This document shows, one piece after another, positions 1 through 17,436 of a DNA stretch of 56,595 nt (its first letter is position 1; each line of letters begins with the position of its first letter). A program made the position numbers and the translations under genes. Source of the DNA: an uncultured Clostridia bacterium (GTDB lineage: Bacteria; Bacillota; Clostridia; Oscillospirales; CAG-272); NCBI GenBank assembly GCA_947573405.1, contig CANPFW010000003.1, forward strand, positions 1-56,595, in the 5' to 3' direction. The notes beneath the pieces are model-generated. The model did not search any database. It was given only the letters and a program-made list of their open reading frames with translations, and was not told the origin of the DNA.

Positions 1-33
1 GGCTGTCATGCTTTTAGCATGACTGGGGGATTG
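1..33. repeat. Partial unit (F orientation) of the window-wide palindromic intergenic repeat family; cut by the window edge on the left and by the AT-rich island on the right
   Basis: ggctgtcatgcttttagcatgactgggggattg is near-identical to 21319-21350 and closely related to 17559-17591. Confidence 0.8.
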
Positions 34-381
34 GAAAGTTTATATAGATAAAAGTTCCAGAAAGACTGAGACTATTTTTATTTCAAATAAAAATGCCAGT
101 AAATCCGCATGGTTTTTTACTCTTTATAATAAATCAAATTTTTATGAGCGATTGTGCTGTTAAAAGCCAACTAATGGCTATTTAAAGAATAATTTTTTAT
201 TGTATACTTATATTAAGGATTATAACACCAGAGAAAAGGATAATAAGACAATAACAGATTTACCAAATTATTATATCTGTGTGTGACCTGTTTTACAAAG
301 ATTTAAGTAAATATAAATTAAATAATGGCTTATTAGAATTTACTTGAATAAGTATAATAGTAAAATTTATTTGGAGTGCGA

Positions 382-1698
382 ATGGAAATACTTGAAATTG
401 TACCATTGCTTCCTTTGCAAAAAACAATGTTATATAAAATATTGTCTAATCCAAGTATTCCTGTATTTGGTGAGCAGTGGAGATATAAAGTAACCGGAAG
501 GATAGATGTTTCCTTGATAGAAAAAGCATGGCAGAAAACAATAAATAGTTATGATATTCTGCATGGCGTTTTTCAATGGGAACATAGAAAATCCCCTGTT
601 TTTCTGATCCTGAAAAGCGCCGTAAACAGATGTCAGATATATCATCTGGAGAATTTCAAAGAAGCTGATAAGACAAAGCAAGCCGATAGGATCGCATGGA
701 AGGAATACCACAATCCGGTCAATCTAAATGAATTACCTATAAGAATGACCATTACACTATTATCTGAAAATTGTTGTGAATGGATAATTACTTCTAACCA
801 TATTTTATTTGATGGTTGGAGTAATTCAATAATTATGAATAATTTCATTCATAATTATTTCACCCTATGCGATAATCGAAAAATACAGACACAAAGTAAA
901 GGGCAGGCGTATTCTGATTATGTTCGTTATGTCTATCAGGAACAGAATAATTCGCAGCATATAAATTATTGGAAAAATTATATAAACGGGTATATTTTCT
1001 CACAACCATATACTCGAAAACGAAAAAACGGGAATCGCATAGAGCAATTTCCATTAACGGAAAGTCAAATCCAAATGATTCAAAGATTTTGCCGGTTAAA
1101 TGGTTTTACATTATCTGTTGTCCTTTATACCATATGGGCATCCCTTCTATACATAGAAAATCCCCGAAAAACGATCATTATCGGCGCAACTGTATCCGGT
1201 CGCAACTTATTGCCATGTTCATATGACGATGTAGTGGGGTTGTTGGCAAAAACATTGCCTATGCAAATTAGTTTTGATAATAACTCAAGTATTGTAGATA
1301 TTATGACTGGAATTCGAACAGATTTAATAGATATAGAAGAACATATGCACGTAACCCCTGAAATTTGGCTTGATATACTTCCCAATATCCAAGAATGTTT
1401 TTCTGAAGGCTTAACGATCCAGAACTATCCGGTACAGGCATATAACAATAAAGGCGAAATTGATTTTCAGATAGAGTTTTACCAATCTAACTATTATACA
1501 GATATGGATTTTTCAATTTCAATAAAAACATTTATACAGCCCAATTCACTGGAGATTAACTACTCCGCCGACCGTTATTCATCAAAAATGGTACATCACC
1601 GGATAAATCTATATTTACATATTCTTCAAAGTCTTATACAACTTACACAATCGGAAATTAAAAATACGTGTATTATAAGCTGGCTAAAAAATTTATAA
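382..1698 (+). CDS. Free-standing NRPS condensation (C) domain protein
   Basis: Condensation core motifs are readable: LPLQKTMLY (C1), YDILHGVF (C2), SNHILFDGWS (C3 HHxxxDG with first His replaced by Asn), YSDYVRY (C4), VGLLAKTLP (C5). GGAG at 373-376 lies 5 nt before ATG 382; the ORF track starts at GTG 376. Confidence 0.8.
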   Translation: MEILEIVPLLPLQKTMLYKILSNPSIPVFGEQWRYKVTGRIDVSLIEKAWQKTINSYDILHGVFQWEHRKSPVFLILKSAVNRCQIYHLENFKEADKTKQADRIAWKEYHNPVNLNELPIRMTITLLSENCCEWIITSNHILFDGWSNSIIMNNFIHNYFTLCDNRKIQTQSKGQAYSDYVRYVYQEQNNSQHINYWKNYINGYIFSQPYTRKRKNGNRIEQFPLTESQIQMIQRFCRLNGFTLSVVLYTIWASLLYIENPRKTIIIGATVSGRNLLPCSYDDVVGLLAKTLPMQISFDNNSSIVDIMTGIRTDLIDIEEHMHVTPEIWLDILPNIQECFSEGLTIQNYPVQAYNNKGEIDFQIEFYQSNYYTDMDFSISIKTFIQPNSLEINYSADRYSSKMVHHRINLYLHILQSLIQLTQSEIKNTCIISWLKNL

Positions 1699-1704
1699 TG
1701 AAAA

Positions 1705-2778
1705 GTGGTAATAATTATTATTAAGTTTAGTGTTCCTGCGGATTTTAAAGAGAATACCCTGAAAAAGCTGAAATATATAAACAGCTTATCTGAAAACAAA
1801 AAAATTGTAGAAGTGTATGGTCAAATAACGACAGGTAACATACTGGCATCAGGAAGAAATCCTCAGGTTTTGCCGCAAGTTGATTTGAATGAATTAAAAG
1901 CATACATAAAACAATGTGATAAATACGGTTTTGAATTTAACTATACATTGAATGCATCCTGTATGGGGAATAAAGAATTTTCAGCAGATATGCGCCAATT
2001 TATCCTCACGCTGGATAGGATAGGGGTTTCATCTTATACGCTCTCTATACCATATTTATTTGATTTAGTAGCTGAAGTCTTGTCAGAAAATAAAATAAAA
2101 GCTTCTGCAATCTGTGAAATCAACAGTGTGATGAAAGCGAAGCATTACAAAGAATTGCCGATAACCCGTATTGTAGTCGATCCCGATATTACCAGACGTT
2201 TTGATATTTTACGGGGAATCTGTAATGAATTTGGAGAAAATGTTGAAATTATAGTCAACAATGCCTGTATACAAAATTGCCCATATAAGATGTTTCATTA
2301 CAACCATGAGGCTCATGGGGGATTAGAGCATTCAAATGAAATAAATAACCAGTATTATTATCATAAATGTTCGTTACAGAAAGCACAAACAGATTATAAT
2401 TTTATAAAAATAAACTGGATACGACCAGAAGATTTACATTACTATGTTGAAACCGGCATAACACGTTTCAAAATCCATGGAAGAAACTATATAAATTCCG
2501 ACAATCTTTTGAAGGTAACCGAAGCTTATTTTTCTGAAAAATTTGATGGAAATCTTATGGACTTGCTAACGCTCTTTCAGCCATATAATGCTTTTCAGCC
2601 ATATATTGACAATAAAAAGCTGGATGGATTTATTAAACGATTTTATGACTACCCACATGCTTGTAATGAAATATGCGAGGCTTGCGGACATTGTTTATCT
2701 TACGCAAAAAAAAGTATGGACATGGAAGCCGTACATACTGTTAATGATTATGCAAAACAGTTATATAAAAAAATTTAG
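1705..2778 (+). CDS. Divergent U32-family (PrtC/UbiU/UbiV/RlhA-like) putative Fe-S protein, paralog 1
   Basis: The overall U32 TIM-barrel pattern is present: FSVPADF, IVEVYGQ..SGR, DLNELKAYI, GFEFNYTLNAS, IIVNNACIQNC. Conserved Cys are shared with the next ORF, including C-terminal CNEICEACGHC. Confidence 0.55.
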   Translation: MVIIIIKFSVPADFKENTLKKLKYINSLSENKKIVEVYGQITTGNILASGRNPQVLPQVDLNELKAYIKQCDKYGFEFNYTLNASCMGNKEFSADMRQFILTLDRIGVSSYTLSIPYLFDLVAEVLSENKIKASAICEINSVMKAKHYKELPITRIVVDPDITRRFDILRGICNEFGENVEIIVNNACIQNCPYKMFHYNHEAHGGLEHSNEINNQYYYHKCSLQKAQTDYNFIKINWIRPEDLHYYVETGITRFKIHGRNYINSDNLLKVTEAYFSEKFDGNLMDLLTLFQPYNAFQPYIDNKKLDGFIKRFYDYPHACNEICEACGHCLSYAKKSMDMEAVHTVNDYAKQLYKKI

Positions 2779-2811
2779 CCTGTTGGCTTTATAAATATAA
2801 GGAAAAGCATT

Positions 2812-3927
2812 ATGAATTATTATAGTATTCCTTCGGATTTTAAAGTTGAAAGTGTAGAACGATATATTAAATTAAATCAACGCTGTGAGGATAAAATTAC
2901 AGAAGTATACGGTCAGCTTAACAGTACGGAAAATATATTTGGTTCTGGTAGAACGTCAAATCAATTGCCTGAAGTTACATATAATGAGCTTAAGAATTAT
3001 ATTTCTTTGTTATCGCGCAATGGCTTCAGCTTTAATTATACTTTCAATGCATCATGTTTATCAAATATGGAATTTACAAAAGATGGACAACAGAAAATTA
3101 TTACATTTCTCAATAGATTGATAGATGCAGGAGTGAATTCTGTAACAGTATGTATGCCGTCTCTTATAGAACTGATTCATGAATTGAATTTACCGATACG
3201 GATAAAAAGTTCTACAGTATGCGGTGTTACCAATGGTGAAAAAGCCCGGGCATATCGTTCTTTAGGCGTTAGTCGCTTAGTAGCGGATGAAAGTATCAAC
3301 CGGGATTTTACCGCTTTACGACAAATGGTACAGGTTTTTCCCGATGATCTTGAATTAATCGTTAATGTAATATGCGATAAAAACTGTATTTATCGACCCT
3401 TCCACCATAATCAGATGTCTCATGATTGTAAATATCTCGAAAAATCTACAAGCTATTATTCACATAGATGCAGTATGCACAGAGCGCAAACGCCAGAAAA
3501 TATACTTAAAATGAATTTTATTAGACCAGAAGATATTATACATTATGAAAATATTGGCATTCATCATTATAAAGTTCAGGGAAGACAAGCAGCAGAAAAT
3601 GGAGATATTTTAAGAACCGTTGAGGCATATATGATGAAAAGCTATGAGGGAGATCTCCTTGAACTGTTGGACTGCTTTTTGCCAACCAATTCATTTCGTG
3701 TGGAAATAGACAACAAAAGGTTGGATGGATTTCTATTACCTTTTTTACAGGATAATTTTTGTCAAAGAGATTGTAAGAATTGCAATTATTGTCTTTCGTT
3801 TTTTAAAAAATTTTTGCCTTATGATGAAATAGATCATATCAATCAGATTGCAAATGAATTTTATAAAGGTACTGATGAATTTAGCAGAGATATCATGGAA
3901 TGGAGTAATAAAATAAATGGAAAATGA
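2812..3927 (+). CDS. Divergent U32-family putative Fe-S protein, paralog 2
   Basis: Colinear with 1705-2778: YSIPSDF, ITEVYGQ..SGR, TYNELKNYI, GFSFNYTFNAS, LIVNVICDKNC, HRCS, C-terminal CQRDCKNCNYC. Confidence 0.55.
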   Translation: MNYYSIPSDFKVESVERYIKLNQRCEDKITEVYGQLNSTENIFGSGRTSNQLPEVTYNELKNYISLLSRNGFSFNYTFNASCLSNMEFTKDGQQKIITFLNRLIDAGVNSVTVCMPSLIELIHELNLPIRIKSSTVCGVTNGEKARAYRSLGVSRLVADESINRDFTALRQMVQVFPDDLELIVNVICDKNCIYRPFHHNQMSHDCKYLEKSTSYYSHRCSMHRAQTPENILKMNFIRPEDIIHYENIGIHHYKVQGRQAAENGDILRTVEAYMMKSYEGDLLELLDCFLPTNSFRVEIDNKRLDGFLLPFLQDNFCQRDCKNCNYCLSFFKKFLPYDEIDHINQIANEFYKGTDEFSRDIMEWSNKINGK

Positions 3928-6900
3928 TAGAGTACATACAGTGGGGGATATTATAGATACAAAATTACCAAAATGGACGATACAAGAACGAATGAAAGAA
4001 ATGGCAAAAATTCAAAAGGATAAACCAGCCATTATAACTTTTCTCAATCAAGAAACAGATACACAGATTAATCAACCGGCCGATTCAGATATTCAATGGA
4101 TTTGCTTTGTGGCGGATAGGTTTACTGTTGTACGCCGTTTAGAGCGTCAGTTTATGCTCTTATCACGAGAAAATGTTCGGGTTATCTTGGATCAGACAGC
4201 ATATGAGATTTATTCGCTTTTTAATGGGAACTTATCTGTATCGGAAATATATAGGCAATACGTTATTGGCGGGAAAGGCACATGGTCGTGTGAAACAGTC
4301 GATGTAGAATCGTCTGTATCAATAGAAAAGAATATAAATTGTCATATGGAATTTTCTGGTCTGAATGGTCTCGTAAACTTCGCGCTGTTTCTGCGGCAAC
4401 ATGGTTTCTTAGTTGTTCATAAAGTAAAAGTTACTGCAGACTACCCAAAATACGAATTTTCTGAATACGACATTACAGAATCGAAAGTCGAAACGGATCT
4501 GAGCCAAATCGAACCTTGTAAAGTTTTGTTATTAGGGGATAAGCCCGGAATGGCCACTGTGGGCATTTTATATTTAGCTTCATATCTGGTTCAAAATGGA
4601 ATTTCGGCCAAATGCCTGCTTATTAACAAAGAATATAGTTTTCAAAAGTTTCTGGACAACCTATTATTGATACTGAATAATATGCGACCATCATATGTAG
4701 CTATTAGCATGAAATGGTTTCCTCATATTGAGCGGGTGTATGAAATTTCAAGATTCGTAAAACAGTATCAAAAAGATATTCATATCATAGTGGGCGGGGA
4801 CACAGCATCTCATTATGCAAGGGAAGTAATTCAGGAACCGACAATAGATTACGTGATATGTGGTGATGGGGAAGACGCTTTGCTGCAAATATGTAAAGGG
4901 ATTGTGCCTGCACCAAATACTTACTATAAGAAAAATGGCGATGTACATACGCCTGATTCATACATTACAAACAGTGAAAAAAATGTATACTCTCTTTTAC
5001 CACCTGAAAAAATCATGATAGATCCCAAAATGCTTATGTATATTACGTTATATTTACCAACGTCTAAAGGGTGCATGCATGATTGTCTTCAATGTGGAGG
5101 AACTATGCATATTCAAAGGAAAAGTATGCACAGAAATCCTGGCTTATTTACACGACCAGCTCATATTGTAAGGCAGGATATTATTCAAACACAAAATCAT
5201 GTTGCATCTTATATGTTCAGCATTTGTGATACGGTTAGAGAGGATTTTTCTTACTTCGCGCTTATGTGGAAAGATTTAAATCTTTCAAATCATGTTTGCG
5301 CTCTGTTTAGTACATCAATAATCGATGAAAAAATTATTGATCTTGCCGCAAAGACTTTTTGTTATGTGCGTCTGGGTATCGACATGTGCAGTTTATCGGA
5401 GCGGCATAGAGAAAAAATTAACAATCATACAAACGGAAAAGAACAAATTAGCGATACAATGCTCTACAGTTTTTTAGATATATGTGAGCGGTATGATAAT
5501 TGTGAAGTTGATATTTATACGATAGCCGGTATGCCATTTTTTGAGGAGAGTGATATACAAGCTGAGAATGAGACAATAGATAAGCTGTTAAAGTACAGGT
5601 GTTTTAGAGGGATAGAGTGGGGACGTCTCCACGCTCAGCCAGGAGCCAAGTTGCTTGCAGGCGCTGAGCAGTATGGATTGAAGGCCGATGCTTGTGATTA
5701 TACGTCATTTCACCAATACAGCAGACTGAATCAGGCAAACAGTGACATCTATCCTGCAATGCCGTATTATCATTATCCCTATATTTCCTATGTAGATAGC
5801 GAGAAAAGCCGGCATGTTTATGGTCATTATTTTGAAATGAGTGAGAAATGTCGAAAGAACGCCCGAACTGTAAATCAAACAATCACAAAAGAAATCAGTT
5901 ATTATGATTTATATGCCCTTTCTTGTCAGATGGCAAAGGCACTGTTACACGCAGGGTTACAGTCACAGCAAAATGTAATTTTATATTTTAACGACCGTTT
6001 ATATTTATCAGTTGCTATATTATCTGTTATTCTGGCAGGAGGGTGCTATATCCCATTGGATCCAATGTTTCATGAAAATCTAATTGAGCATTTAGCTTCT
6101 GAAGATACTGTTTTTAAATTATTTACCGATGCTTCCATCTCATGCAATAAGCGGTTGGATTTTTGTGATTTGTTGCACAATAGCCATTCTGAAATGGTGT
6201 TGCCTGAAGGAAATGCCAGATTATTGCTCTATCGTATCTATTCCTCCGGTTCGACGGATACCCCAAAATGCATTGCAATACGGCAGGAGAGTGTTACGAA
6301 TTATACCAACTGGAGAATAGTTAATTATAATATTAGTGACCATGATGTGGTGCTGCAAATGCTGTCTGAAGCATTTGACGGCTTCGGATCTAATTTTTAT
6401 ACGACTTTGATGGCAGGCGGTTGCCTGGTTATGCCGACACCCAAGCAAAATCGAGATATCTCATTTATTAAGACGATTTGTAAGAAATATCAAATAACAC
6501 ATACCAGTTTGCTCCCATTTCAACTGGAAATGATAGTTCAGAATGATGTTGACGTCCTGAAGTCTTTTAAATCGGTAGTTGTGGCGGGAGAGACCTGTCA
6601 CGGAGATCTGCTTAAAAACATAAATCATTTTTATCCTGCATTAATTGTGATCAACGAATATGGTCCGACGGAATGTAGCATTGCAGTTACCGCGAATATC
6701 GGCTTGAATGAAGATTCCATATATAATATTGGTCGTCCGATTTCAAATGTAGAGGTGTCGCTTGTAAATGCGCAGGGACTTCCGGCATCAAATGGAGAAG
6801 CTGGTGAAATATGGATTACTGGATGCTGCTTGTTATCTGGCTATGGCTTTTCGGACAATACGGACTCTTCAGATATACCCAAGGTTTTCAAAACGAATGA

Positions 6901-6982
6901 CACAGCTCGCTATGACATCATTACAAAAGAACATATTATGTGCATATATTTGTTGAAAACACTTAGCTATCAAGCGTATTAG
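3917..6982 (+). CDS. Fusion protein: PqqD-like N-terminal segment + cobalamin-binding domain + radical SAM core + adenylation domain lacking its C-terminal subdomain
   Basis: PqqD-like segment at aa ~60-125 (ENVRVILDQTAYEIYSLFNGNLSVSEIYRQY). B12-binding-like segment at aa ~200-330 (KVLLLGDKPG...IIVGGDTAS...ICGDGEDAL). CxxxCxxC = CMHDCLQC at nt 5072-5095. Adenylation motifs: YSSGSTDTPK (A3), FDGFG (A4), NEYGPTE (A5), GEIWITGCCLLSGY (A6), FKTNDTARY (A7). No A8-A10 motifs before the stop. Overlaps the upstream gene by 11 nt. Confidence 0.7.
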   Translation: MENDRVHTVGDIIDTKLPKWTIQERMKEMAKIQKDKPAIITFLNQETDTQINQPADSDIQWICFVADRFTVVRRLERQFMLLSRENVRVILDQTAYEIYSLFNGNLSVSEIYRQYVIGGKGTWSCETVDVESSVSIEKNINCHMEFSGLNGLVNFALFLRQHGFLVVHKVKVTADYPKYEFSEYDITESKVETDLSQIEPCKVLLLGDKPGMATVGILYLASYLVQNGISAKCLLINKEYSFQKFLDNLLLILNNMRPSYVAISMKWFPHIERVYEISRFVKQYQKDIHIIVGGDTASHYAREVIQEPTIDYVICGDGEDALLQICKGIVPAPNTYYKKNGDVHTPDSYITNSEKNVYSLLPPEKIMIDPKMLMYITLYLPTSKGCMHDCLQCGGTMHIQRKSMHRNPGLFTRPAHIVRQDIIQTQNHVASYMFSICDTVREDFSYFALMWKDLNLSNHVCALFSTSIIDEKIIDLAAKTFCYVRLGIDMCSLSERHREKINNHTNGKEQISDTMLYSFLDICERYDNCEVDIYTIAGMPFFEESDIQAENETIDKLLKYRCFRGIEWGRLHAQPGAKLLAGAEQYGLKADACDYTSFHQYSRLNQANSDIYPAMPYYHYPYISYVDSEKSRHVYGHYFEMSEKCRKNARTVNQTITKEISYYDLYALSCQMAKALLHAGLQSQQNVILYFNDRLYLSVAILSVILAGGCYIPLDPMFHENLIEHLASEDTVFKLFTDASISCNKRLDFCDLLHNSHSEMVLPEGNARLLLYRIYSSGSTDTPKCIAIRQESVTNYTNWRIVNYNISDHDVVLQMLSEAFDGFGSNFYTTLMAGGCLVMPTPKQNRDISFIKTICKKYQITHTSLLPFQLEMIVQNDVDVLKSFKSVVVAGETCHGDLLKNINHFYPALIVINEYGPTECSIAVTANIGLNEDSIYNIGRPISNVEVSLVNAQGLPASNGEAGEIWITGCCLLSGYGFSDNTDSSDIPKVFKTNDTARYDIITKEHIMCIYLLKTLSYQAY

Positions 6983-6996: not shown

Positions 6997-8166
6997 TTAT
7001 TGTTCTAACTTATATTCATTTTTCAACAGATCTATATATAATGGAATATCATCAATTTTCGGATTTTCAAAATGGAAGCAATAGAAAGAGCAACTTCTGT
7101 ATTTTTCTCCATTGTGTGACCAGATTACTGTATGAGGGCATTGACCAGTTTGTTTTTTATATCTGTCAAAGACATCACAATCTTGACATTTCTTATTTTT
7201 CATATATTCAATAATTTGCGGTGGGAACTTATCAAATCTATCTTCACGCCCTTTAATTTTCAGAAAAAGGTTTAATACTAAGTAAGTTTTCATATCCTTC
7301 AGAATAATATTTCTATATTCAGGAACTGTATAATAACTGAGTTCTTCTTTCCATAAGTCATCTTCATATCGTATTTCTGCAAGTGCCTTTTTTTCTAAAT
7401 AATAATTACCTTTACGCTCACCTTTATATTCAACATTCGGAAATTTTTGCATATATTCATAAAAAGCTAAATAAAATTTTTTTGCTTCTTTATCCCAAGT
7501 ATAAATTTTATCGTTGACCCATACTATTTCCGGAAGTTGTGAAAGATCAACTAAATATTTATAATCCAGTGTATAGAAATTAAGCTTGAATTGATCTATA
7601 TTTTTAATAAATTTTTGCTGGTCCTCATTGATTTCCTTACAGCTGCAATATGTTTTCAGTGTGTTTATTAGTTTAGGATTTGATGGGAAAGAAACCTCTA
7701 ATAGACTCTCTTTTATTTTATTGTTATTATAGCCACTTATGGTAAAGCCAAACTCTATAAGTTTGTTGATTATCAAATAATAACGGGTTATTGCTTGTTT
7801 TTTGATCTGAGCGATGAACGACTGCCCGTCCGATATTAATGTATTGTTTTGTACTTTGCCTGAATCAAAAAGTGCATACAGAACGTCCAACAATCTATGT
7901 AGAGAGTTTCTCGATTCTCTGAGAGGCCCCCTCACGCATAAATGTATTGCATGGTTGTTTTGCTCATGAACATCTATCAATAGCAGCCCATAGTCTTCCG
8001 GATGTTCAGCCATATCGCAGTATATTTTTTTTATTAATTCGATTAAATCTCTAAAATCGTCAATAAAACTTTTGTCAAGACCTTTTTTTAGAGGCAATTC
8101 GTCAGGTAAAGGAAGAATTGAATTTACATATTCCAGCGCTTGATATTGTACATGATACTTGTACAT
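6997..8166 (-). CDS. Hypothetical protein with Cys-rich C-terminus, opposite strand to the cluster
   Basis: 389-aa intact ORF. AAGGAG lies 7 nt upstream of ATG 8166. C-terminal KCQDCDV...CPH...CSFYC. No family recognised. Confidence 0.5.
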   Translation of the reverse strand: MYKYHVQYQALEYVNSILPLPDELPLKKGLDKSFIDDFRDLIELIKKIYCDMAEHPEDYGLLLIDVHEQNNHAIHLCVRGPLRESRNSLHRLLDVLYALFDSGKVQNNTLISDGQSFIAQIKKQAITRYYLIINKLIEFGFTISGYNNNKIKESLLEVSFPSNPKLINTLKTYCSCKEINEDQQKFIKNIDQFKLNFYTLDYKYLVDLSQLPEIVWVNDKIYTWDKEAKKFYLAFYEYMQKFPNVEYKGERKGNYYLEKKALAEIRYEDDLWKEELSYYTVPEYRNIILKDMKTYLVLNLFLKIKGREDRFDKFPPQIIEYMKNKKCQDCDVFDRYKKQTGQCPHTVIWSHNGEKYRSCSFYCFHFENPKIDDIPLYIDLLKNEYKLEQ

Positions 8167-8407: not shown

Positions 8408-10069
8408 ATGGATAGAGATATAGCGATTATTGGTATATCGATATTGTTTCCCAAAGCAGAAACATTGGATACTTTATGGAGCGGATTTTATTCAAGAAAT
8501 TCCACAAAGCCGAAAATATTATACGGAAAAATATTGGCACTATGCTTTTCCGAATCGACCATATAATATACCACAGGTTGCATATATTGATGAAATAGAT
8601 CAATTTGATTATTCATATTTTAGATTATCAAAGCATGACGCTGATTATACGGATCCAGCTCATCGTCTGTTTTTACAAACTGCGGTCCGCTGTCTGGAAG
8701 ATGCCGGATATTTTAGCGAAAATATCAAAGGATCTGATACCGGAGTGTTTGTAGGGTACGGGGGAGATTTTGATTACACCCAGATGGTAGCCATGAAAGA
8801 TTGTGCTAATATGAAAACGCATTCCGTTGGATTGCTAGCATCCTTTATTACTTCTCGATTATCTTATTTGTATGATTTAAAGGGCCCTGCGATGGTAGTT
8901 GACACATCGTGTTCATCTTCTTTGGTCGCGTTACATTCTGCGTGTAACAGCATAAGAGCGGGAGAATGTACTATGGCTATAGTTGGTGGAGCACACCTGT
9001 ATACGGTACCAGTGTTAAGAGGTGGGCTTGGAGTACAATCTTCTGACTGCCGAACACGATCCTTTGATGATAGTGCAGATGGTACAGGTTCGGGAGAAGG
9101 CGTGTGTGCCATATTAATAAAAAAAGCAAGGGAAGCATATAAAGACGGGGATCATATTTACGCTGTTATCAAAGGGAGCGCTGTTGTTAGTGATGGAAAT
9201 GCGGCCGGAATCGCCAGCCCAAACCTTATGGCGCAAAAGCTGACAATTCAAAAGGCTTGGGAAGATGCGAATATTGATCCTTGTACAATTTCGTATGTTG
9301 AGGCTCATGGCACGGGGACACGTATTGGCGACCCCATTGAGTTAAAAGCATTGTCTGAAGCCTTTTCAGATTACAGCAGTAATAGGGGCTTTTGTGCTGT
9401 TAGTTCAATAAAATCCAACATGGGTCACTTAGGATATTGTGCAGGCCTGGCAGGTTTAGTAAAAGCTGTTCTTCAATTAAAGCATCAGACTATTGTTTCT
9501 ACTGCTCATTTTCATAAGTTGAACAAGAATATAACTTTGGATAAAAGTGCGATATATATCAGCAAGGAAAATAAACTCACAGACAAGTTTAATTCCCTCA
9601 AATTACGATATTATTTGTGCAAATTATGTTGCGGGAGAGAATTATGATTGGAAGAAATTATACCCTGATAAAGTTAATCGGGTTTCATTACCCGGGACAA
9701 CACTACAAACGACAAAGTGCTGGTTATCATTCTCTGATCAATTAACCGAGACGAATGATACAACAGGAACTGATAACTGTCCTTTTCAATTTTTTCAATC
9801 GCTTGTACAAGACAAATGTCAAGATCCAATATTAATAGATCATTTAATTCTTTTGTGGATATTTAGAAATCAGATTGGTAATCAGGAGCTTCAGTCCGGT
9901 GATAATTTGTATGATATGGGTGCCGATTCTATCACGGCACTTCAAATACTGCGATATATTAACCAAATTTATAATTTTAACGCCGGATGAATTTTTGCTT
10001 TACCAATCAGTTGATGAAGTAGCGACTCTCATATATAAGTATAGAAAAGAAACGTTTGTGGAGAAATAG
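8408..10069 (+). pseudogene. Type I PKS-like ketosynthase plus carrier protein, disrupted by at least three frame changes and an apparent internal deletion
   Basis: ATG 8408 with AGGAG RBS gives MDRDIAIIGISILFPKAETLDTLW, then the frame shifts into ORF 8430-9647. That ORF has VDTSCSSSL active-site Cys, EAHGTGT and KSNMGHL. ORF 9547-9990 has ANYVAGENYDWKKLY and carrier motif GADSITALQ. ORF 9875-10069 has the carrier C-terminus LTPDEFLLYQSVDEVATLI. Confidence 0.7.
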
Positions 10070-10074
10070 CGGCT

Positions 10075-11038
10075 ATGAATGATATAATTCATTTAAATGA
10101 TTTCTATTATATTCCTTCATTTAATGAATTAAGTTGTGAAGAAATTATAGAAACATGCTGTTGTGATAATGAACTTATTAATAGCAATGGGGAACATTAT
10201 TTTAAGCCATACAGTAAAGATTATAAAATACTGTATTGTGTTTTTCCTTTCTATATTGAAGATACTTGTAGAAAATTTATCTCAATTCTTTCATTGCGGA
10301 GTAGAAGTTCAGGAGAGCTTATCTCATGCTGAAATTAAGAGATTATTGACTGATAAAATTCCTATATTATTCATTATGGATCCTCGTGTAGTGCCTTATA
10401 ATACACGTAATTTGAATCCCACAGGTCAGCAGGAAATACACAGTGCGGTTCTTTATGGTTTTAACGATCTGACAGCCTGCTATATGGTTGCAGATTCTGC
10501 AATTGCAGATGATACGGGATTTATACACTGTGATAAAGTTACTATTGATCAGGCATTTTTACGTAACCATACAAAAGGTTTTCTTTATTGTATATAGACA
10601 GTGTGCCGATTCATCAACCCAACATGCGGCTTGTAGTTTATGAGACAATCTATGAATTTCTTCATCCACAAAAAAGTCCCGCTTTTTGTGAAGGGGTGGA
10701 TGCCATTAACTATATGATTGCGTTACTTAAGGCAAATAAGTTCAATTTTGTGGAGCTACAGTTTTTGATCCAAGCGTATTTTATGCCATTTTTTCTATTA
10801 CATAGATGAGTGTTTTAAGTTTTTTAAAAATGTGTCGGAAAATAGGTCCAAGATAAAACTGGAAAAAAACAAATGGGACATTTTTTACTATAAGCATCTA
10901 CTTAGATATTCTCACAATAGCAATTACAAGATAATGGTCGAAAATTTTCAGAAGTTATTTATATTTTTTGTTACGATGCTTGATGAATTTCTTTATGATT
11001 GGAAACAACAAATTTCAAAGGAGAATAATTATGAATAA
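10075..11038 (+). pseudogene. One gene shattered into four frame-shifted ORFs (possibly BtrH-like/papain-fold acyltransferase; family call weak)
   Basis: ORFs 10075-10332, 10163-10597, 10588-10809 and 10832-11038 abut in alternating frames. The HSAVLYGFND...VADSA pattern resembles Cys/His papain-like folds. Confidence 0.35.
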
Positions 11039-11180
11039 TCTCGATATGCAAAGCCAACTTATTAATATATACAAAAAATTTAATAAAAGCGATAAGGTTA
11101 CGGAATTAACGCTCTCTACCCAATTAAGTTATTTGGATATAAATTCAATTTGGTCTTGTAGACAAAATTACGTTTCTTGA
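11031..11180 (+). pseudogene. Short ORF with strong RBS, possibly the N-terminal stub of a small carrier protein
   Basis: AAGGAG lies 7 nt upstream of ATG 11031. MNNLDMQSQLINIYKKF...LSYLDINSI then runs into unrelated sequence. The junction with the glycosyltransferase remnant is at ~11140-11150. Confidence 0.25.
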
Positions 11181-11184
11181 TCAT

Positions 11185-11526
11185 GTGCCTCAAAAGGATC
11201 TTTTTCAGGTTTATGAAAAAGCAAAAGTTATGGCCTTTCCTTCAATAAGTCATGAAACGTTCGGCATGAGTGGTGCGGAAGCCGTAGCAGCAGGAATTCC
11301 TGTGGTAGCTTTTCAAATCGATGGAATAGGTGAATGGCTTCAGGATGGCATTAATGGTCGTATAGTTAAACAGGGTGATATCGGCGCCTATGCTGCTGCT
11401 TTGAATGAGATACTGACAGATGATAACATTTATAACTCTTATCATGAAAACGCAATGAAATGGCGTGCGGATCTGGATTATCCTGGGCAGGTATCCTCGC
11501 TATGCAATATGTATCTAACATTATAA
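11185..11526 (+). pseudogene. C-terminal third of a GT1/GT4-type glycosyltransferase (N-terminal ~250 aa missing)
   Basis: VPQKDLFQVYEKAKVMAFPSISHETFGMSGAEAVAAGIPVV contains the EX7E motif. The same frame reads GLVDKITFLDH upstream to a TAA at 11140-11142. There is no room for the N-terminal Rossmann domain. Confidence 0.65.
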
Positions 11527-11533: not shown

Positions 11534-12316
11534 ATGAAAAATAATTATTTTAATATGCAGCAGCCGAAGTATAAGATATCCATACCAGGTTCGAGGATCA
11601 TGGTGATTGCTCCGCATCCTGATGATGAGGTTATTGGTTGCGGCGGGACTATTTTAAAGGGATTGAATCAACAGGTATTTGACATTGTTTATATTACAAA
11701 TGGTGAAAAAGGCTTTGTTTCAGAACATGCTGGAACTGCAGAAATCAGAATACAAGAAGCTGTAAATAATTGGAATTCTTATAATAACATTCACTTGCAT
11801 TTTATAGGTTTAAAAGATTCTGACATTATCTGTGATCTGGATTCTATTAGAAAAATAGGTGAAGTTATTCTGACAAATCAGCCGGATTGTATTTTGCTGC
11901 CAGATGTAACAGATCATAATATTGACCATCTTGCTTGTAATTTACTTATACACGAGGCATTGCTGCTCTTTTCATACACACATATATTAATTTGGGGATA
12001 TGAAGTTTGGTCAGCAATTAATCCGGATATTGTAGTTAATATTACAGAGTATTACCAGGGAAAATGTCAAATGATTCATAATTATATATCACAGTTTCAA
12101 CAGTTTGACTATGAAACCCTTTTTACACTCAATAATAAACGTACGGCTATTTATGGAGTTTTATTCGCAGATAATACACATAATGTGCATCGAGTCGAAC
12201 AGAAACAACGCATGAAAAAGAATCTGCCCTTTACCAGAGAGTGGCTTTATGCAGAAGGGTTTCGCAGATATACATTTTCAGAGCATGCTAAAGAATTGTC
12301 CGATAAATTGAAATGA
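11534..12316 (+). CDS. PIG-L/LmbE family deacetylase
   Basis: VIAPHPDDEVIGCGGT and HNIDH motifs; 260 aa, intact. Confidence 0.8.
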   Translation: MKNNYFNMQQPKYKISIPGSRIMVIAPHPDDEVIGCGGTILKGLNQQVFDIVYITNGEKGFVSEHAGTAEIRIQEAVNNWNSYNNIHLHFIGLKDSDIICDLDSIRKIGEVILTNQPDCILLPDVTDHNIDHLACNLLIHEALLLFSYTHILIWGYEVWSAINPDIVVNITEYYQGKCQMIHNYISQFQQFDYETLFTLNNKRTAIYGVLFADNTHNVHRVEQKQRMKKNLPFTREWLYAEGFRRYTFSEHAKELSDKLK

Positions 12317-12334
12317 TTATAGGGGAGGATTCAA

Positions 12335-13162
12335 ATGCGACAGTATAGAGATATAACAATATTAGGGAGATGCAACCTATCTTGTCAATATTGTGATCAT
12401 CCTGATTTCAGTGTGTGTGAAAATCAAGTGATCCAATCCTTGGACGTTATAATGAAACGTTTTGAACGAGACAAAATGTGTTTTCGTATTGAGTCTAGGG
12501 GGGAGATAACCTTATACCCTCATATCATTAATCATATTAAGAATTATGCTGATAAAGGATATCGACTGGAATTGCTTAGCAATGGTCTGCTGATTGACGA
12601 TGTCCTGAATGATTATAAAAAAATAGGTTGTGTTATATCTTTGGATGGTCATACAACTAAGATGAATGAGATGCGGGGTTTGTCACAGTCTCAGGTGAAT
12701 CGGATTTTAAATAACATTTTTAAATATGATGCAGATATTCAGATGGTTTATTTGAATCAAAGTGCAGAAGAAATTAATGCTTTTATCCGATTCCTTCAGG
12801 ACAATCACTTTAAAGGACTGTTGCACATATTTCCGTGTTCATTAAAAAACAAAAATATGTCAAAGTGCTTGTCTTACGATGATTTAATCCACACTGAATT
12901 TATTCCGCCTAAAGAATATTTTGAACGCTGGAAATACATATACGAAAATAATTCACGAAATTTTATTTGTGATTTTTATAAAAATGGATATATATATTAT
13001 ATATTTAACCGTAATATAAAAATGGCAAAGTGTGATGGAAACGCATCGATTTGGAGAATATTGCACCCACTTGGTAATGAGCGGAATGTTTCCATTGACT
13101 GTCTGAATTGCATTAATAATAATGAATTTAATAATCAAAGAAAATTTGTTGCATTAAATTAA
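12335..13162 (+). CDS. Small radical SAM enzyme with C-terminal Cys cluster (BtrN/twitch-like size)
   Basis: GRCNLSCQYCDH (CxxxCxxC), RGEITLYP (GGE-like SAM motif), C-terminal CDGN...CLNC; 275 aa. Confidence 0.75.
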   Translation: MRQYRDITILGRCNLSCQYCDHPDFSVCENQVIQSLDVIMKRFERDKMCFRIESRGEITLYPHIINHIKNYADKGYRLELLSNGLLIDDVLNDYKKIGCVISLDGHTTKMNEMRGLSQSQVNRILNNIFKYDADIQMVYLNQSAEEINAFIRFLQDNHFKGLLHIFPCSLKNKNMSKCLSYDDLIHTEFIPPKEYFERWKYIYENNSRNFICDFYKNGYIYYIFNRNIKMAKCDGNASIWRILHPLGNERNVSIDCLNCINNNEFNNQRKFVALN

Positions 13163-13174
13163 TGGGTATATGAA

Positions 13175-14521
13175 TTGCTGATTTTATTATATGATAAAGT
13201 TGAGGTGATGAATCCACTGAGCCGATTTATAAATGATTTGATGCAGGATATCTGGAAAAATGAATCCGTCAGGTTCAAAAAGTTATATGAATATTATATG
13301 AACATGCCTGAAAAACAAATAACTGCATTGTTAGAAAGTAATAAAGCGCTGGTATATGAAAACGATGGAAATAATATGACTAGCTTAATTACTTGTGGTT
13401 GTCAGCATTTTTATTCCAATTTTTCAATTGCCGGATGCAGCATGTGTAACTTACACCGTAAATCTGTTGAAACAGCTGCTGCTTTAACCGCGTTGCGTGA
13501 TAGAAATCGCTGTAAATATTCAGAAATGGTTTGCAAAAGCTTTACAAATGCACGAGGAGTTGTTCAGTCACGAACTATACACGAATATTTATTTAGCTAC
13601 GATTTTTTAAATCCAATGGAAATCCCTGATGAATGCTTGGAAATGCTGTTATCTGGAGAGGGGGGAGTTTTCAGCAGGAAGCCATGGATTTATGAGTTTG
13701 AGACAACGGCACGTAGCATTAGCAAGGTAAGGTTGAAATTACTCAAGCGTTATGTGGGAAATAGAGATATTATTATACGTATTGGAGTTGAATGTGCGGA
13801 TGAATTTATTCGAAATGAATGGCTGAACAAAAATTTATTTAATCAGCAAATAATAGATGCAATTTCTTTATGTCATGAAGAAGGAATCAAGATAACAGGC
13901 AATATTTTACTGGGTATTCCAGGGTTTACAGAAGAACTCAGTATAAATCAGTTTATTGATACGGTTCATTGGCTTTTTAGCTGCAACATGGATTATATAT
14001 CCTGTTCCTTACTTAGCCGGACAGAGAAGTCTTTCCAGGGATTTCTTCATAGTTCCCTAAAAAATAATGATGTATTGCAAAAATATGGTTTAGCTTATAT
14101 GGAACATACCGGACTGCCATGGTTATTTTCCTTAGTTCGAGCTATCCACCAATTATATAATAGTGAACCGGAAACGCTAAAAAAAATATTTTTCGGGCAA
14201 TTTATTGACAGCTATATTGAACAATCCCATAGCCCTGCTTTCAATCAAACGAGAGAATGTTCTTGCGTAAAAGAATTTAATCAAATTTTGACATTAGGTA
14301 AATTGCCAGACGATTGGAGAAACATACACTTTTTTGCTGATTATAAGGCAGATCCTTGTTATCCTTATTATATGAATTTGTGTGAGCGGCAAAATCAAAT
14401 ATCTAATGTTATGGATAATATGAGGATTTTATCAAAAGAAGTCATTGATAAAAAATGGGGTGAAGGAGACCGGCGATTATATGATTTTAATATGAATTTA
14501 AAGAATCATTATTTTGAATGA
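13175..14521 (+). CDS. Radical SAM superfamily protein with non-canonical cluster motif (Elp3/TIGR01210-01212-like)
   Basis: CGCQHFYSNFSIAGCSMCNL (C-x11-C-x2-C) and IRIGVECADEFIRNEWLNKN...ITGNILLGIPGFTEE, typical of the rSAM barrel. The start is uncertain (TTG 13175 or ATG 13208). Confidence 0.5.
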   Translation: MLILLYDKVEVMNPLSRFINDLMQDIWKNESVRFKKLYEYYMNMPEKQITALLESNKALVYENDGNNMTSLITCGCQHFYSNFSIAGCSMCNLHRKSVETAAALTALRDRNRCKYSEMVCKSFTNARGVVQSRTIHEYLFSYDFLNPMEIPDECLEMLLSGEGGVFSRKPWIYEFETTARSISKVRLKLLKRYVGNRDIIIRIGVECADEFIRNEWLNKNLFNQQIIDAISLCHEEGIKITGNILLGIPGFTEELSINQFIDTVHWLFSCNMDYISCSLLSRTEKSFQGFLHSSLKNNDVLQKYGLAYMEHTGLPWLFSLVRAIHQLYNSEPETLKKIFFGQFIDSYIEQSHSPAFNQTRECSCVKEFNQILTLGKLPDDWRNIHFFADYKADPCYPYYMNLCERQNQISNVMDNMRILSKEVIDKKWGEGDRRLYDFNMNLKNHYFE

Positions 14522-14531: not shown

Positions 14532-15143
14532 ATGTGTTTTGACGATATTACCAATTTATTTAACGTAAAGAAATATACATATGAATTAACATTATCGGAA
14601 AATAATATACCCGAAGTATGCAGAAAGCAACTCCTTATGCCTATGCATGATCTTAATGGAACGCAATATTAATTTTATATAAATTTGGAAAATCATTACG
14701 TTACGCTTTGGAGTGTTGATACTAAAAAGTTTGTTAATTTTTCATGTTCATACTTAAAGCAATATGAAATGAAGAAACAACTTATGTATGGTAGAATCAA
14801 TATTCACAATCTGATAAAAAATAATAACAAGATATATGCTTTACCGGACTTTGCAAATTTTATTTGGTGTTTTGACTTATTTAATGATGGTTTCACAGTC
14901 GCTTGTGAAAGCTTCGATCATATCTATGGATTATCCAATACTATTTATAACGATGCTATTTACTATTCAGCATCTCGCCATAATGATCAAGTGATTAAAA
15001 ATCCTAATAGAGAAATAATCAGGAACCAGATTGCCTGCTTACATTTTCTCTTTCAGGGGATGCATCCAAAATTGCAGTTTTTGTTCTTCGTCTTTTTGGG
15101 CATAGAAATCGCTTGTCTGAAAAATGGCGTGGTGAATGATTAA
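14532..15143 (+). pseudogene. Hypothetical ORF interrupted by an in-frame TAA (14670-14672); alternatively a 46-codon ORF plus a separate 152-aa ORF
   Basis: GAGGA lies 7 nt upstream of ATG 14532. The 46 codons (MCFDDITNLF...NGTQY) are in the same frame as ORF 14685-15143, which only has a TTG start. Confidence 0.35.
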
Positions 15144-17372: not shown

Positions 17373-17394
17373 GGCAAAGTATTAACAATGTGAA

Positions 17395-17428
17395 GGGAAT
17401 CAGGCGTTTGCCTGATTCCCTTGTCTTT
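17395..17428 (+). terminator. Rho-independent terminator
   Basis: gggaatcaggc-gttt-gcctgattccc followed by ttgtcttt. Confidence 0.7.
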
Positions 17429-17436
17429 ATATGACT

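What the first reader, a model, noticed from the sequence alone, without database searches (positions are those of the whole stretch)
376..6982. Intact, translationally coupled module: free C domain + two U32-like Fe-S paralogs + PqqD-like/B12/radical-SAM/adenylation fusion
Four co-directional genes are separated by gaps of 6 and 33 nt and an 11-nt overlap. Unlike most of the island, their frames are uninterrupted.

The module combines three kinds of biosynthetic logic:
- NRPS-type: a stand-alone condensation domain and an adenylation domain.
- RiPP-type: a PqqD-like recognition segment attached to a class-B (cobalamin) radical SAM enzyme.
- A pair of U32-family proteins, whose characterised relatives perform O2-independent hydroxylations.

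I cannot place this gene set in any characterised pathway.

Caveats: no thiolation/carrier domain and no convincing precursor-peptide ORF lies next to it. The A domain lacks its C-terminal subdomain. The module may therefore be incomplete or non-functional in this strain.
Basis: partly seen in the sequence, partly recalled or inferred. Interest (0 to 1): 0.8.

Follow-up and report, generated by a model that had tools for sequence, protein, structure and literature searches.

The report
Decayed NRPS cassette with U32 enzymes
The four genes are real and belong to a widespread, uncharacterised peptide-synthetase cassette of anaerobic bacteria that pairs iron-sulfur 'U32' enzymes with one particular amino-acid-loading domain, but in this strain the fourth gene and most of the surrounding 21-kb gene cluster have been wrecked by deletions.

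Summary
The ORFs, their spacing (6 nt, 33 nt, 11-nt overlap) and nearly all domain calls hold. The claim of an intact module does not.

**What is broken.** Strains of the same species, 99% identical, carry a 1189-aa version of gene 4 with the full adenylation domain and a carrier (T) domain, followed by a second B12-radical-SAM gene. In the window 2,403 bp are replaced by 23 bp at 6921-6943. Four more lesions destroy the downstream KS-T, orf800, carrier, acyl-AMP ligase, DUF362, BtrH-like and GT4 genes. The window therefore holds the remnant of a 17-gene, roughly 21-kb NRPS/PKS/amino-sugar cluster in an uncultured Clostridiales bacterium.

**What is conserved.** The cassette recurs across phyla and in cultured Anaerocolumna cellulosilytica and Enterocloster clostridioformis.
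- The tightest link is between this divergent U32 subfamily and an adenylation domain with the conserved code DGSSVAEIAK. The subfamily has seven invariant cysteines and 724 representatives at E<=1e-30.
- The B12-radical-SAM domain and its N-terminal RRE-like domain are optional extras.

**Best hypothesis (inferred).** The U32 proteins hydroxylate, without O2, a tyrosine-like residue loaded by that A domain, and the B12 enzyme C-methylates it.

No paper describing this was found. I rate it a new variant of known kinds, non-functional here.

The parts
376..1698 (+). Stand-alone NRPS condensation domain. The ORF starts at GTG 376; the probable start is ATG 382, behind a GGAG site. The active-site motif reads NHILFDG, so the second (catalytic) His is kept.
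   Evidence: Pfam Condensation, E 6e-50. Sequence. 99.8% identical to L004. Homologous free C domains lie next to U32 genes in L008, L009, L086 and L087.
1705..2778 (+). U32a, a divergent U32-family Fe-S protein. It is a paralogue of U32b and is present in only some lineages.
   Evidence: Pfam PF01136, 28.1 bits against a 22.4 cut-off. 40% identical to U32b. Shares the seven invariant Cys.
2812..3927 (+). U32b, the conserved U32-subfamily member. It has seven invariant Cys: C188-x3-C192-x27-C220 and C317-x3-C321-x2-C324-x2-C327.
   Evidence: Pfam, 40.9 bits. AlphaFold model pLDDT 92.6, with top PDB fold match the U32 protein Mk0906 (5d88): E 7e-10, TM-score 0.73 on the target. Alignments. 724 representatives at E<=1e-30.
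3917..6982 (+). Truncated fusion gene (1021 aa here, 1189 aa when intact). Domains by residue: RRE-like about 60-170; B12-binding 213-323; radical-SAM core with C386/C390/C393, extending to about 640; A-domain core 655-1001. Twenty foreign residues follow, then a stop.
6921..6943 (.). Deletion scar. A 23-bp filler replaces 2,403 bp of the intact cluster (L004 7091-9493). The lost stretch held A-domain motifs A8-A10, the T domain and a 538-aa B12-radical-SAM gene.
   Evidence: blastn and junction read-out. Gene content of L004.
6997..8166 (-). 389-aa Cys-rich orphan gene on the opposite strand. It is intact and found only in this species' version of the cluster.
8408..10066 (+). KS-T (RhiE/CurL-like PKS module) pseudogene. 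It has a 17-bp deletion near codon 20, a 369-bp deletion at 9575 between GAAAATAAA repeats, and a frameshift near 9977.
   Evidence: tblastn frames and blastn. The intact gene is 689 aa in L004 and L089.
10075..11146 (+). Remnants only: orf800 codons 1-68 (10075-10278), the BtrH/C39-like gene from about codon 67 (10252 to about 11038), and the first ~38 codons of a free carrier protein (about 11031-11146). A 5.6-kb deletion removed most of orf800, T82, the acyl-AMP ligase, the DUF362/ferredoxin gene and the first ~66 codons of the BtrH-like gene.
   Evidence: blastn against L089. Gene table of L089. tblastn. Pfam.
11147..11526 (+). C-terminal fragment of a GT4 glycosyltransferase (MshA/BshA-like). 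A 922-bp deletion removed its N-terminus.
11534..14521 (+). Intact tail of the cluster: PIG-L/BshB-like deacetylase (11534-12316), a radical-SAM enzyme (12335-13162) and a 448-aa radical-SAM-like protein (13175-14521).

Best explanation
The four genes are the 5' end of a horizontally acquired, low-GC gene cluster of about 21 kb and 17 genes in an uncultured Clostridiales bacterium. It is a hybrid NRPS/PKS/amino-sugar cluster, and in this strain it is decaying.

**Shown**
- Gene 4 has lost its A-domain C-terminal subdomain and its carrier domain.
- Four genes are gone entirely: the second B12-radical-SAM, T82, the acyl-AMP ligase and the DUF362/ferredoxin gene. Five are reduced to fragments: KS-T, orf800, the BtrH-like gene, T84 and GT4. 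The assembly line cannot run here.
- In intact relatives the core is a conserved cassette: a free C domain, one or two U32-subfamily Fe-S proteins, and an A-T module whose A domain carries the specificity code DGSSVAEIAK.
- In about a third of the sampled cases that A-T module is fused behind a B12-radical-SAM domain. The closer relatives also have an RRE-like domain.

**Inferred mechanism**
1. The A domain loads a tyrosine-like phenolic amino acid onto its T domain.
2. The U32 protein hydroxylates the aromatic ring without O2. It may act as a heterodimer where two paralogues exist. This would parallel UbiU/UbiV on phenolic ubiquinone precursors, probably with prephenate as the O donor.
3. The fused B12-radical-SAM domain C-methylates the tethered residue in cis.
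4. The free C domain N-acylates it with a unit delivered on a free carrier protein.
5. KS-T extends the chain.
6. A BtrH-like transferase passes it to a glucosamine-derived acceptor made by the GT4, PIG-L and radical-SAM enzymes.
For: **Decay**
- A 99%-identical 1189-aa homologue carries AMP-binding_C and PP-binding.
- The five lesions were mapped against L004 and L089.
- The same chromosomal flank appears in sister strains.
- GC content is 32-37% in the cluster and 44-52% in the core genome.

**Cassette conservation**
- A U32b-type gene lies just upstream of the fusion in 13 distinct loci from Firmicutes, Aminicenantes and Bacteroidetes.
- A. cellulosilytica has C-U32-fusion with the same 11-nt overlap.
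- E. clostridioformis has T, C, U32, U32, then C-A-T without the radical-SAM domain. It also has an orf800 homologue.

**A-domain code**
- DGSSVAEIAK, or variants differing at one to three positions, is kept from 29% to 99% identity. It is also present in the E. clostridioformis C-A-T protein.
- In 77 metagenome loci seeded with U32 alone, 21 have an A-domain motif downstream on the same strand. In 18 of those 21 the first such A domain is of the E322 type. Other A domains in the same loci are mostly not.

**U32 assignment**
- Pfam above cut-off and fold match to 5d88.
- Seven invariant Cys.
- Characterised U32 proteins are 4Fe-4S, O2-independent hydroxylases of aromatic rings, and UbiU/UbiV form a heterodimer (PMC6747719, PMC10990095).

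**Tyrosine-like substrate**
- From my own recollection, the Stachelhaus Tyr code is DGTITAEVAK. It shares 6 of 10 positions with this code, and 8 of 10 if T/S and V/I are counted as conservative, including E322, which contacts the phenol OH.
Against: - No biochemical or genetic data exist for any member.
- The substrate call rests on a hand-mapped code. It was aligned to a GrsA fragment I wrote from memory and compared with a Tyr code I recalled, which two literature string searches did not retrieve.
- The Cys pattern differs from the canonical U32 CX6CX15CX3/4C, so the chemistry may differ.
- The profile is remote from mainstream U32: only 2,520 hits at E<=1e-3 among 1.84 billion representatives.
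- B12-radical-SAM enzymes also catalyse reactions other than methylation. The best named match, TIGR04190, has no known function and scores far below its cut-off.
- The role of the RRE-like domain is unexplained.
- Some distant fusions (L014, L016) appear to lack E322.
- The locus census used exact DNA motifs because the scripting machine was lost, so the counts are approximate.
Confidence: 0.55

Rival explanations
1. The U32 proteins are not hydroxylases. They might be peptidases for prodrug or product maturation. Alternatively they might be Fe-S redox partners or some other kind of Fe-S enzyme (dehydratase, desaturase, electron donor) serving the radical-SAM enzymes or the assembly line.
For: The family was first named as collagenase-like peptidases. 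The Cys pattern here (CX3CX27C plus CX3CX2CX2C) is not the canonical U32 oxidase motif. The subfamily is remote from mainstream U32. No direct in-vitro hydroxylase activity has been shown even for UbiU/UbiV.
Against: Seven invariant Cys argue for metal clusters rather than a protease. The link is to one A-domain specificity rather than to radical-SAM genes, since the E. clostridioformis locus has no B12-radical-SAM. Every U32 member with an assigned function is tied to O2-independent hydroxylation.
Confidence: 0.2
2. The A domain loads a non-aromatic amino acid, for example a basic or amide residue that pairs with E322. In that case the U32 and B12 enzymes perform aliphatic (beta-carbon) hydroxylation and methylation.
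For: E322 also occurs, as I recall, in the Asn and His codes. The residues at 239 and 278 are small Ser, which gives a large pocket. Class B radical-SAM methylases usually act on sp3 carbons (established knowledge).
Against: Positions 235, 236, 301, 322, 331 and 517 match the recalled Tyr code. Known U32 substrates are all aromatic or heteroaromatic rings.
Confidence: 0.15
3. The module is a RiPP/NRPS hybrid. The RRE-like domain would bind a leader or scaffold peptide that the radical-SAM domain modifies, with A-T supplying an amino acid.
For: The top fold matches are RRE domains. A 46-aa ORF at 14532-14672 is called in most sister-strain contigs. The relative L005 has a PqqD-like gene and several small ORFs upstream.
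Against: No small ORF is conserved next to the cassette across relatives. Many relatives' fusions start at the B12 domain and lack the RRE. The fold-match E-values are weak (0.026) and Pfam finds no PqqD. The context is NRPS/PKS in nearly every long locus sampled.
Confidence: 0.07
4. The surviving genes still work in this strain as a reduced stand-alone unit. For example, the truncated RRE-B12-radical-SAM protein and the U32 pair might modify a free metabolite.
For: Genes 1-3 and the retained part of gene 4 have no frameshifts or internal stops and are at least 99% identical to the intact version. Three assemblies carry exactly this allele.
Against: The A domain lacks motifs A8-A10, including the catalytic Lys517, and it lacks the carrier domain. 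The partner genes are deleted or frameshifted. The module shows 17 amino-acid changes among at most about 30 nucleotide differences from L004. By my rough count this suggests relaxed constraint.
Confidence: 0.07

Closest known systems
UbiU/UbiV (also TrhP and RlhA): U32-family, O2-independent, prephenate-dependent hydroxylases
   Same: Pfam U32 domain and TIM-barrel fold. Conserved Cys suited to Fe-S clusters. In several lineages two adjacent paralogues, like the UbiU-UbiV heterodimer. Hosts are anaerobes. The proposed substrate is a phenol ring, as in ubiquinone precursors.
   Different: A remote subfamily with weak Pfam scores and no NCBIfam hit. The Cys pattern is CX3CX27C plus a C-terminal CX3CX2CX2C, giving seven invariant Cys instead of CX6CX15CX3/4C. 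The genes sit inside NRPS/PKS clusters next to a C domain and an A-T module, not in quinone or RNA pathways. A single copy is the commoner state.
Class B (cobalamin-dependent) radical-SAM methyltransferases of natural-product pathways (PhpK, Fom3, GenK, ThnK/TokK, CysS, PoyC)
   Same: An N-terminal B12-binding domain followed by a radical-SAM core with CxxxCxxC. Weak profile matches to the PhpK and Ta0216 families. Sits in a biosynthetic cluster.
   Different: Here the enzyme is covalently fused upstream of an NRPS A-T di-domain, and in close relatives also behind an RRE-like domain. I found no described example of this architecture. There is no sequence match to any solved structure. The reaction is unknown.
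RRE/PqqD-like domains fused to RiPP radical-SAM maturases (PqqD-PqqE, AlbA, SuiB, CteB; the lasso-peptide RRE protein TbiB1)
   Same: The predicted fold of residues about 60-170 matches RRE domains. Its position N-terminal to a radical-SAM enzyme is the RiPP-maturase layout.
   Different: No Pfam PqqD hit and extra inserted strands. No precursor peptide. The partner is an NRPS module. The domain is dispensable in distant relatives.
Tailoring of carrier-tethered or NRPS-destined tyrosine in aerobes (SfmD/SfmM2/SfmM3 for 3-hydroxy-5-methyl-O-methyltyrosine; P450 or di-iron beta-hydroxylases acting on T-bound residues)
   Same: Proposed functional analogy: hydroxylation plus C-methylation of a tyrosine building block for an assembly line.
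   Different: Entirely different enzyme families, and these use O2 or H2O2. The analogy is inference only.
Butirosin-type acyl transfer (BtrH/BtrI) and the MshA/MshB or BshA/BshB GlcNAc-transfer/deacetylation pairs
   Same: The intact cluster has a BtrH_N/C39-like protein after KS-T, free carrier proteins, an MshA/BshA-like GT4 and a BshB-like PIG-L deacetylase.
   Different: All scores are far below the equivalog cut-offs. These genes are combined here with NRPS/PKS and several radical-SAM enzymes. The product is unknown.

Membership tests
Peptidase U32 family (Pfam PF01136) | Profile match above the gathering score | tested here: met
   28.1 and 40.9 bits against a 22.4 cut-off. All listed homologues carry PF01136.
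Peptidase U32 family (Pfam PF01136) | TIM-barrel fold of the one solved member (5d88) | tested here: met
   The AlphaFold model (pLDDT 92.6) has 5d88 as its top hit: E 7e-10, TM-score 0.73 on the target.
U32 oxidases (UbiU/UbiV, TrhP, RlhA) | Four-Cys motif CX6CX15CX3/4C binding a 4Fe-4S cluster | tested here: not met
   The invariant Cys are C188-x3-C192-x27-C220 and C317-x3-C321-x2-C324-x2-C327. The canonical motif is taken from PMC6747719. The residues are Cys-rich and plausibly bind Fe-S, but in a different pattern.
U32 oxidases (UbiU/UbiV, TrhP, RlhA) | O2-independent, prephenate-dependent hydroxylation; heterodimer of two paralogues | not testable with these tools
   Only paralogue adjacency could be seen. 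It occurs in the window, L006, L022, L086, L087 and about ten metagenome loci.
Class B (cobalamin) radical-SAM enzymes | N-terminal B12-binding domain | tested here: met
   PF02310, 44.8 bits against a 32.1 cut-off, residues 213-323.
Class B (cobalamin) radical-SAM enzymes | Radical-SAM core with CxxxCxxC | tested here: met
   C386, C390 and C393 are invariant in 21 homologues. Pfam Radical_SAM scores only 15.9 bits, below its cut-off. TIGR04190 matches at E 1e-25 over residues 212-560 but far below its equivalog cut-off.
NRPS adenylation-thiolation module | Complete A domain (motifs A1-A10, Lys517) followed by a PP-binding domain with its Ser | tested here: not met
   The window protein ends just before motif A8 and has no AMP-binding_C or PP-binding. 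The 99%-identical P0001 and all full-length relatives meet this feature.
NRPS condensation domain | Pfam Condensation and the HHxxxDG active site | tested here: met
   E 6e-50. The motif reads NHILFDG, so the first His is replaced and the catalytic second His and the Asp are kept. The E. clostridioformis homologue has HHIIYDG.
PqqD / RiPP recognition element (RRE) | PqqD profile match | tested here: not met
   No Pfam family matched residues 1-200 even at E<=10.
PqqD / RiPP recognition element (RRE) | Winged-helix plus three-strand fold | tested here: inconclusive
   The top Foldseek hits are RRE domains (5v1v, 5lq4, 8t19, 4bs9, 4v1v) with probability 0.8-1.0. However, E is 0.03-0.2 and the TM-score on the query is only about 0.3.
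RiPP biosynthetic cluster | Precursor-peptide gene next to the maturase | tested here: not met
   No conserved small ORF lies beside the cassette in the window or in L004, L006, L008, L086 or L087. The only candidate is a 46-aa ORF 7.5 kb downstream.

The most novel reading that the evidence does not exclude
This U32 subfamily is the anaerobes' tailoring hydroxylase for non-ribosomal peptide assembly lines. It would convert carrier-bound (or free) tyrosine into a catechol or hydroxy-tyrosine residue without O2, using an organic O donor such as prephenate. The RRE-B12-radical-SAM-A-T fusion would be a self-contained 'load and C-methylate' module. Together they would give an oxygen-free route to hydroxylated, methylated aromatic building blocks. 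The cassette occurs in hundreds of uncultured lineages and in gut Clostridia such as Enterocloster clostridioformis.
Probability: 0.3. Interest if true: 0.8.

Novelty: new variant of a known kind. Interest (0 to 1): 0.6.

Why it matters
How strict anaerobes introduce hydroxyl groups into secondary metabolites is largely an open question. U32 'oxidases' have so far been linked only to ubiquinone and RNA-base hydroxylation, and most U32 subfamilies have no known function.

This work shows a U32 subfamily that is tightly and positionally linked to one NRPS adenylation specificity. That offers a concrete, testable new role and a soluble protein-bound substrate, which could make the still-missing in-vitro assay for U32 chemistry easier to build.

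The B12-radical-SAM fused directly to an A-T module is an unreported architecture for on-line modification. Cultured carriers exist (Anaerocolumna cellulosilytica and Enterocloster clostridioformis), so experiments are feasible.

For this particular genome the practical message is the opposite. The cluster is a pseudogenised remnant and should not be counted as biosynthetic capacity.

Tried and rejected
- **E. coli genome collection.** Searched with the module and with a core segment. No match, so the host is not E. coli.
- **Rfam.** Searched the window and four related loci for a riboswitch or T-box that might name the amino acid. Only the tRNA-Arg gene was found.
- **Sequence search of solved structures.** The radical-SAM part gave nothing. 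U32a gave nothing meaningful. U32b gave only 5d88, at E 0.006.
- **NCBIfam.** No family matched either U32 protein or the 389-aa orphan.
- **Literature.** Searches for U32 combined with BGC, NRPS or PKS terms returned no relevant paper, only Amycolatopsis strain 'U32' noise. String searches for the Tyr and cassette specificity codes returned nothing.
- **Mobile island idea.** I considered an IS- or integrase-borne island. The genes between the cluster and the core (15714-21108) have no transposase or integrase domains and are present in the same order in strains with the intact cluster. I did not pursue it.
- **Pactamycin/mitomycin-type logic.** I considered GT plus PIG-L plus radical SAM acting on an ACP-bound arylamine. 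It could not be tested without reference sequences, so it remains an analogy only.
- **Per-locus domain census by script.** This failed when the scripting machine was lost. I replaced it with exact degenerate-DNA motif counts, which under-count variants.
- **RRE in the E. clostridioformis protein.** I compared the N-terminus of the C-A-T protein with the fusion to look for a hidden RRE. There was no similarity; it is the C-terminal lobe of a C domain.


Full report
**1. The observation**

The ORF listing returns exactly the four co-directional ORFs described: 376-1698, 1705-2778, 2812-3927 and 3917-6982. The gaps are 6 and 33 nt and the overlap is 11 nt. GGAG or AAGGAA-type ribosome-binding sites precede genes 1, 3 and 4. 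The ATG at 382, not the GTG at 376, is the likely start of gene 1.

Pfam supports the domain calls:
- Condensation, E 6e-50.
- Peptidase_U32 in both middle genes, 28.1 and 40.9 bits against a 22.4 cut-off.
- B12-binding, residues 213-323.
- AMP-binding, residues 655-976.

The radical-SAM CxxxCxxC lies at C386/C390/C393 and is invariant in 21 homologues. TIGR04190, a B12/radical-SAM family, matches residues 212-560 at E 1e-25.

The N-terminal 200 residues match no Pfam family. An alignment-based AlphaFold model (pLDDT 79.8) has RRE/PqqD-like domains as its best PDB matches: TbiB1, ThcOx, PbtF and TruD/LynD. Their probability is up to 1.0 but E is only 0.03-0.2. The 'PqqD-like' call is therefore plausible at fold level only.

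The two U32 proteins are 40% identical paralogues. The U32b model (pLDDT 92.6) has the only solved U32 protein, 5d88, as its top match at E 7e-10.

**2. The module is not intact**

The best database relative of gene 4 (P0001, 99% identical over residues 1-1001) is 1189 aa. It continues into AMP-binding_C and PP-binding. Its contig (L004) carries the same C, U32a and U32b genes upstream and a 538-aa B12-radical-SAM gene downstream.

The nucleotide alignment shows the break. Window 1-6920 equals L004 171-7090, and window 6943 onward equals L004 9494 onward. So 2,403 bp are replaced by a 23-bp filler. The break falls just before A-domain motif A8. The window protein therefore lacks the hinge, Lys517 and the carrier domain, and ends in 20 foreign residues.

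Contigs of sister strains with the same chromosomal flank (L089, L090) give the full gene order:
1. C
2. U32a
3. U32b
4. RRE-B12-radical-SAM-A-T fusion
5. B12-radical-SAM (538 aa)
6. 389-aa gene on the minus strand
7. KS-T
8. orf800
9. T82 carrier
10. Acyl-AMP ligase
11. DUF362/ferredoxin
12. BtrH/C39-like gene
13. T84 carrier
14. GT4
15. PIG-L
16. Radical-SAM enzyme
17. Radical-SAM-like protein

Against this order the window has four further lesions:
- A 17-bp deletion in KS-T.
- A 369-bp deletion in KS-T between GAAAATAAA repeats, plus a frameshift.
- A 5.6-kb deletion running from orf800 codon 65 into the BtrH-like gene.
- A 922-bp deletion removing most of T84 and the N-terminal two-thirds of GT4.

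One other strain (L092) shares only the 369-bp deletion, so the decay was stepwise. Three independent assemblies contain the truncated 1021-aa allele, which argues against an assembly artefact.

The host is an uncultured Clostridiales bacterium. The cluster is 32-37% GC against 44-52% in the core genome.

**3. What is conserved elsewhere**

*Seeding with the fusion protein.* This found relatives at 29-56% identity in Firmicutes, Aminicenantes, Bacteroidetes/Marinifilaceae, Chloroflexota and others. A U32b-type gene lies immediately upstream in 13 distinct loci. The U32a duplicate is present in only three of those lineages.

*Seeding with U32b.* At least 182 clusters at 90% identity were found, all with PF01136, including cultured species. 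A full HMM scan gave 724 representatives at E<=1e-30 and only 2,520 at E<=1e-3, so this is a compact subfamily far from mainstream U32.

*Two cultured carriers.*
- In Anaerocolumna cellulosilytica the order is U32, KS, C, U32, then the B12-radical-SAM-A-T fusion, with the same 11-nt overlap, inside an NRPS/PKS cluster.
- In Enterocloster clostridioformis the order is an orf800-like gene, T, C, U32, U32, then a protein made of a C-terminal C-domain lobe plus A-T with no B12-radical-SAM domain, followed by a trans-AT PKS.

*The A-domain code.* The ten-residue specificity code of the associated A domain is DGSSVAEIAK in the window allele (the tenth position, Lys517, is lost to the truncation and is read from the 99%-identical P0001), in A. 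cellulosilytica and in E. clostridioformis. It varies at only one to three positions down to 29% identity. The ruler for this mapping was a GrsA fragment I wrote from memory. It reproduced the known PheA code DAWTIAAICK, which supports the mapping.

*Metagenome loci seeded with U32 alone.*
- The U32 C-terminal CX3CX2CX2C pattern is almost universal.
- 21 loci have an A-domain YGPTE-type motif downstream on the same strand. In 18 of them the first one is preceded by Glu (E322), whereas the other A domains in the same loci mostly are not.
- The B12-radical-SAM marker KWFPH occurs in about ten of these loci.

The invariant association is therefore between the U32 subfamily and this A-domain specificity. 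The B12-radical-SAM and RRE-like domains are frequent add-ons.

**4. Mechanism**

*Shown.* The genes encode the following:
- A C domain with the catalytic His retained (NHILFDG).
- Two U32-fold proteins with seven invariant Cys: CX3CX27C and a C-terminal CX3CX2CX2C.
- A class-B-type radical-SAM domain fused to an NRPS A domain, with a T domain in intact alleles.

*From the literature.*
- UbiU and UbiV are U32 proteins that each bind a 4Fe-4S cluster, form a heterodimer and are required for O2-independent hydroxylation of phenolic ubiquinone precursors.
- Prephenate is the O donor.
- TrhP and RlhA hydroxylate pyrimidine C5.
- Most U32 subfamilies are uncharacterised.

(PMC6747719, PMC10990095, PMC11574389.)

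*Inferred.* The code resembles the Tyr code as I recall it, DGTITAEVAK. It is identical at positions 235, 236, 301, 322, 331 and 517 and conservative at 239 and 330. I therefore propose the following sequence:
1. A tyrosine-like residue is loaded on the T domain.
2. The U32 protein or proteins hydroxylate its ring.
3. The fused B12-radical-SAM domain C-methylates it in cis.
4. The free C domain N-acylates it.
5. KS-T extends the chain.
6. A BtrH-like enzyme transfers it to a glucosamine-derived acceptor made by the MshA/BshA-like GT4, the BshB-like PIG-L and two radical-SAM enzymes.

None of these steps has been tested. In this window none can occur, because the A domain is crippled and there is no carrier.

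**5. Rivals**
- The U32 proteins may have another Fe-S function or be peptidases. The non-canonical Cys pattern keeps this open.
- The substrate may be non-aromatic.
- A RiPP-like reading is unlikely. There is no conserved precursor gene, the RRE is dispensable in distant relatives, and the context is NRPS/PKS in nearly every long locus sampled.
- Residual function of the truncated module is unlikely. Genes 1-3 are still free of frameshifts, but there are 17 amino-acid changes among at most about 30 nucleotide differences from the intact allele. By a rough count this hints at relaxed constraint.

**6. Comparison and novelty**

Membership of Pfam U32, of B12-binding/radical-SAM enzymes and of the NRPS C and A families is met, with the A-T module incomplete in this strain. 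The canonical U32-oxidase Cys motif is not met. The PqqD profile is not met and the fold evidence is inconclusive. The RiPP criterion of a precursor peptide is not met.

I found no paper describing U32 genes in NRPS/PKS clusters or a B12-radical-SAM fused to A-T. The library lacks most subscription journals, so this is absence of evidence only.

I rate the cassette a new variant of known kinds: U32 oxidases and on-line NRPS tailoring. It is of real interest to specialists in anaerobic natural-product biosynthesis. The copy in this window is a decayed remnant.

Noticed in passing
window 21156-21513 (repeat 21278-21350) and window 1-33: A ~358-bp insertion relative to sister strain L089. It contains a 73-bp stretch that is 89% identical to the sequence straddling the window start, just upstream of the cluster. 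This looks like a small dispersed repeat bracketing the low-GC block.
   Followed up: no
window 15399-15474 (-): A tRNA-Arg(ACG) gene sits at the jump from the cluster's GC content (32-37%) to that of the core genome (44-52%). No integrase or transposase domain was found nearby.
   Followed up: partly
window 6997-8166 (-): An intact 389-aa orphan on the opposite strand with a Cys-rich C-terminus. It has no Pfam or NCBIfam family and was found only in this species' version of the cluster.
   Followed up: partly
window 14532-14672 (+): A 46-aa ORF directly after the two radical-SAM genes, called in most sister-strain contigs. It is a possible small peptide or a spurious call.
   Followed up: no
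L004 13033-15435; L087 4540-6837 (window keeps only codons 1-68 at 10075-10278): orf800, an 800-aa protein with no Pfam family and a GYSNG nucleophile-elbow-like motif. It has a homologue (29% identity, E 8e-32) next to a free carrier protein, C domain and U32 pair in Enterocloster clostridioformis, so it may belong to the conserved cassette.
   Followed up: partly
L011, L012, L016, L030, L031, L033 (U32 genes): Distant U32 homologues end in conserved acidic-aromatic tails (DFDF, DFDL, DFNF, DFKF). These may be docking peptides. The window proteins lack them.
   Followed up: no
L092 compared with window 9575: Another strain shares the 369-bp KS-T deletion but keeps the regions lost in the 5.6-kb and 922-bp deletions. 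The cluster is being lost stepwise in the natural population.
   Followed up: partly
window 42937-45024 (+): An aspartyl-tRNA synthetase with a C-terminal GatC domain (residues 606-694), lying upstream of gatA at 45159-46601.
   Followed up: no
window 14784-14986: A ~204-bp segment present here and in L090-L092 but absent from L089 and L093. This is an indel polymorphism just downstream of the cluster.
   Followed up: no
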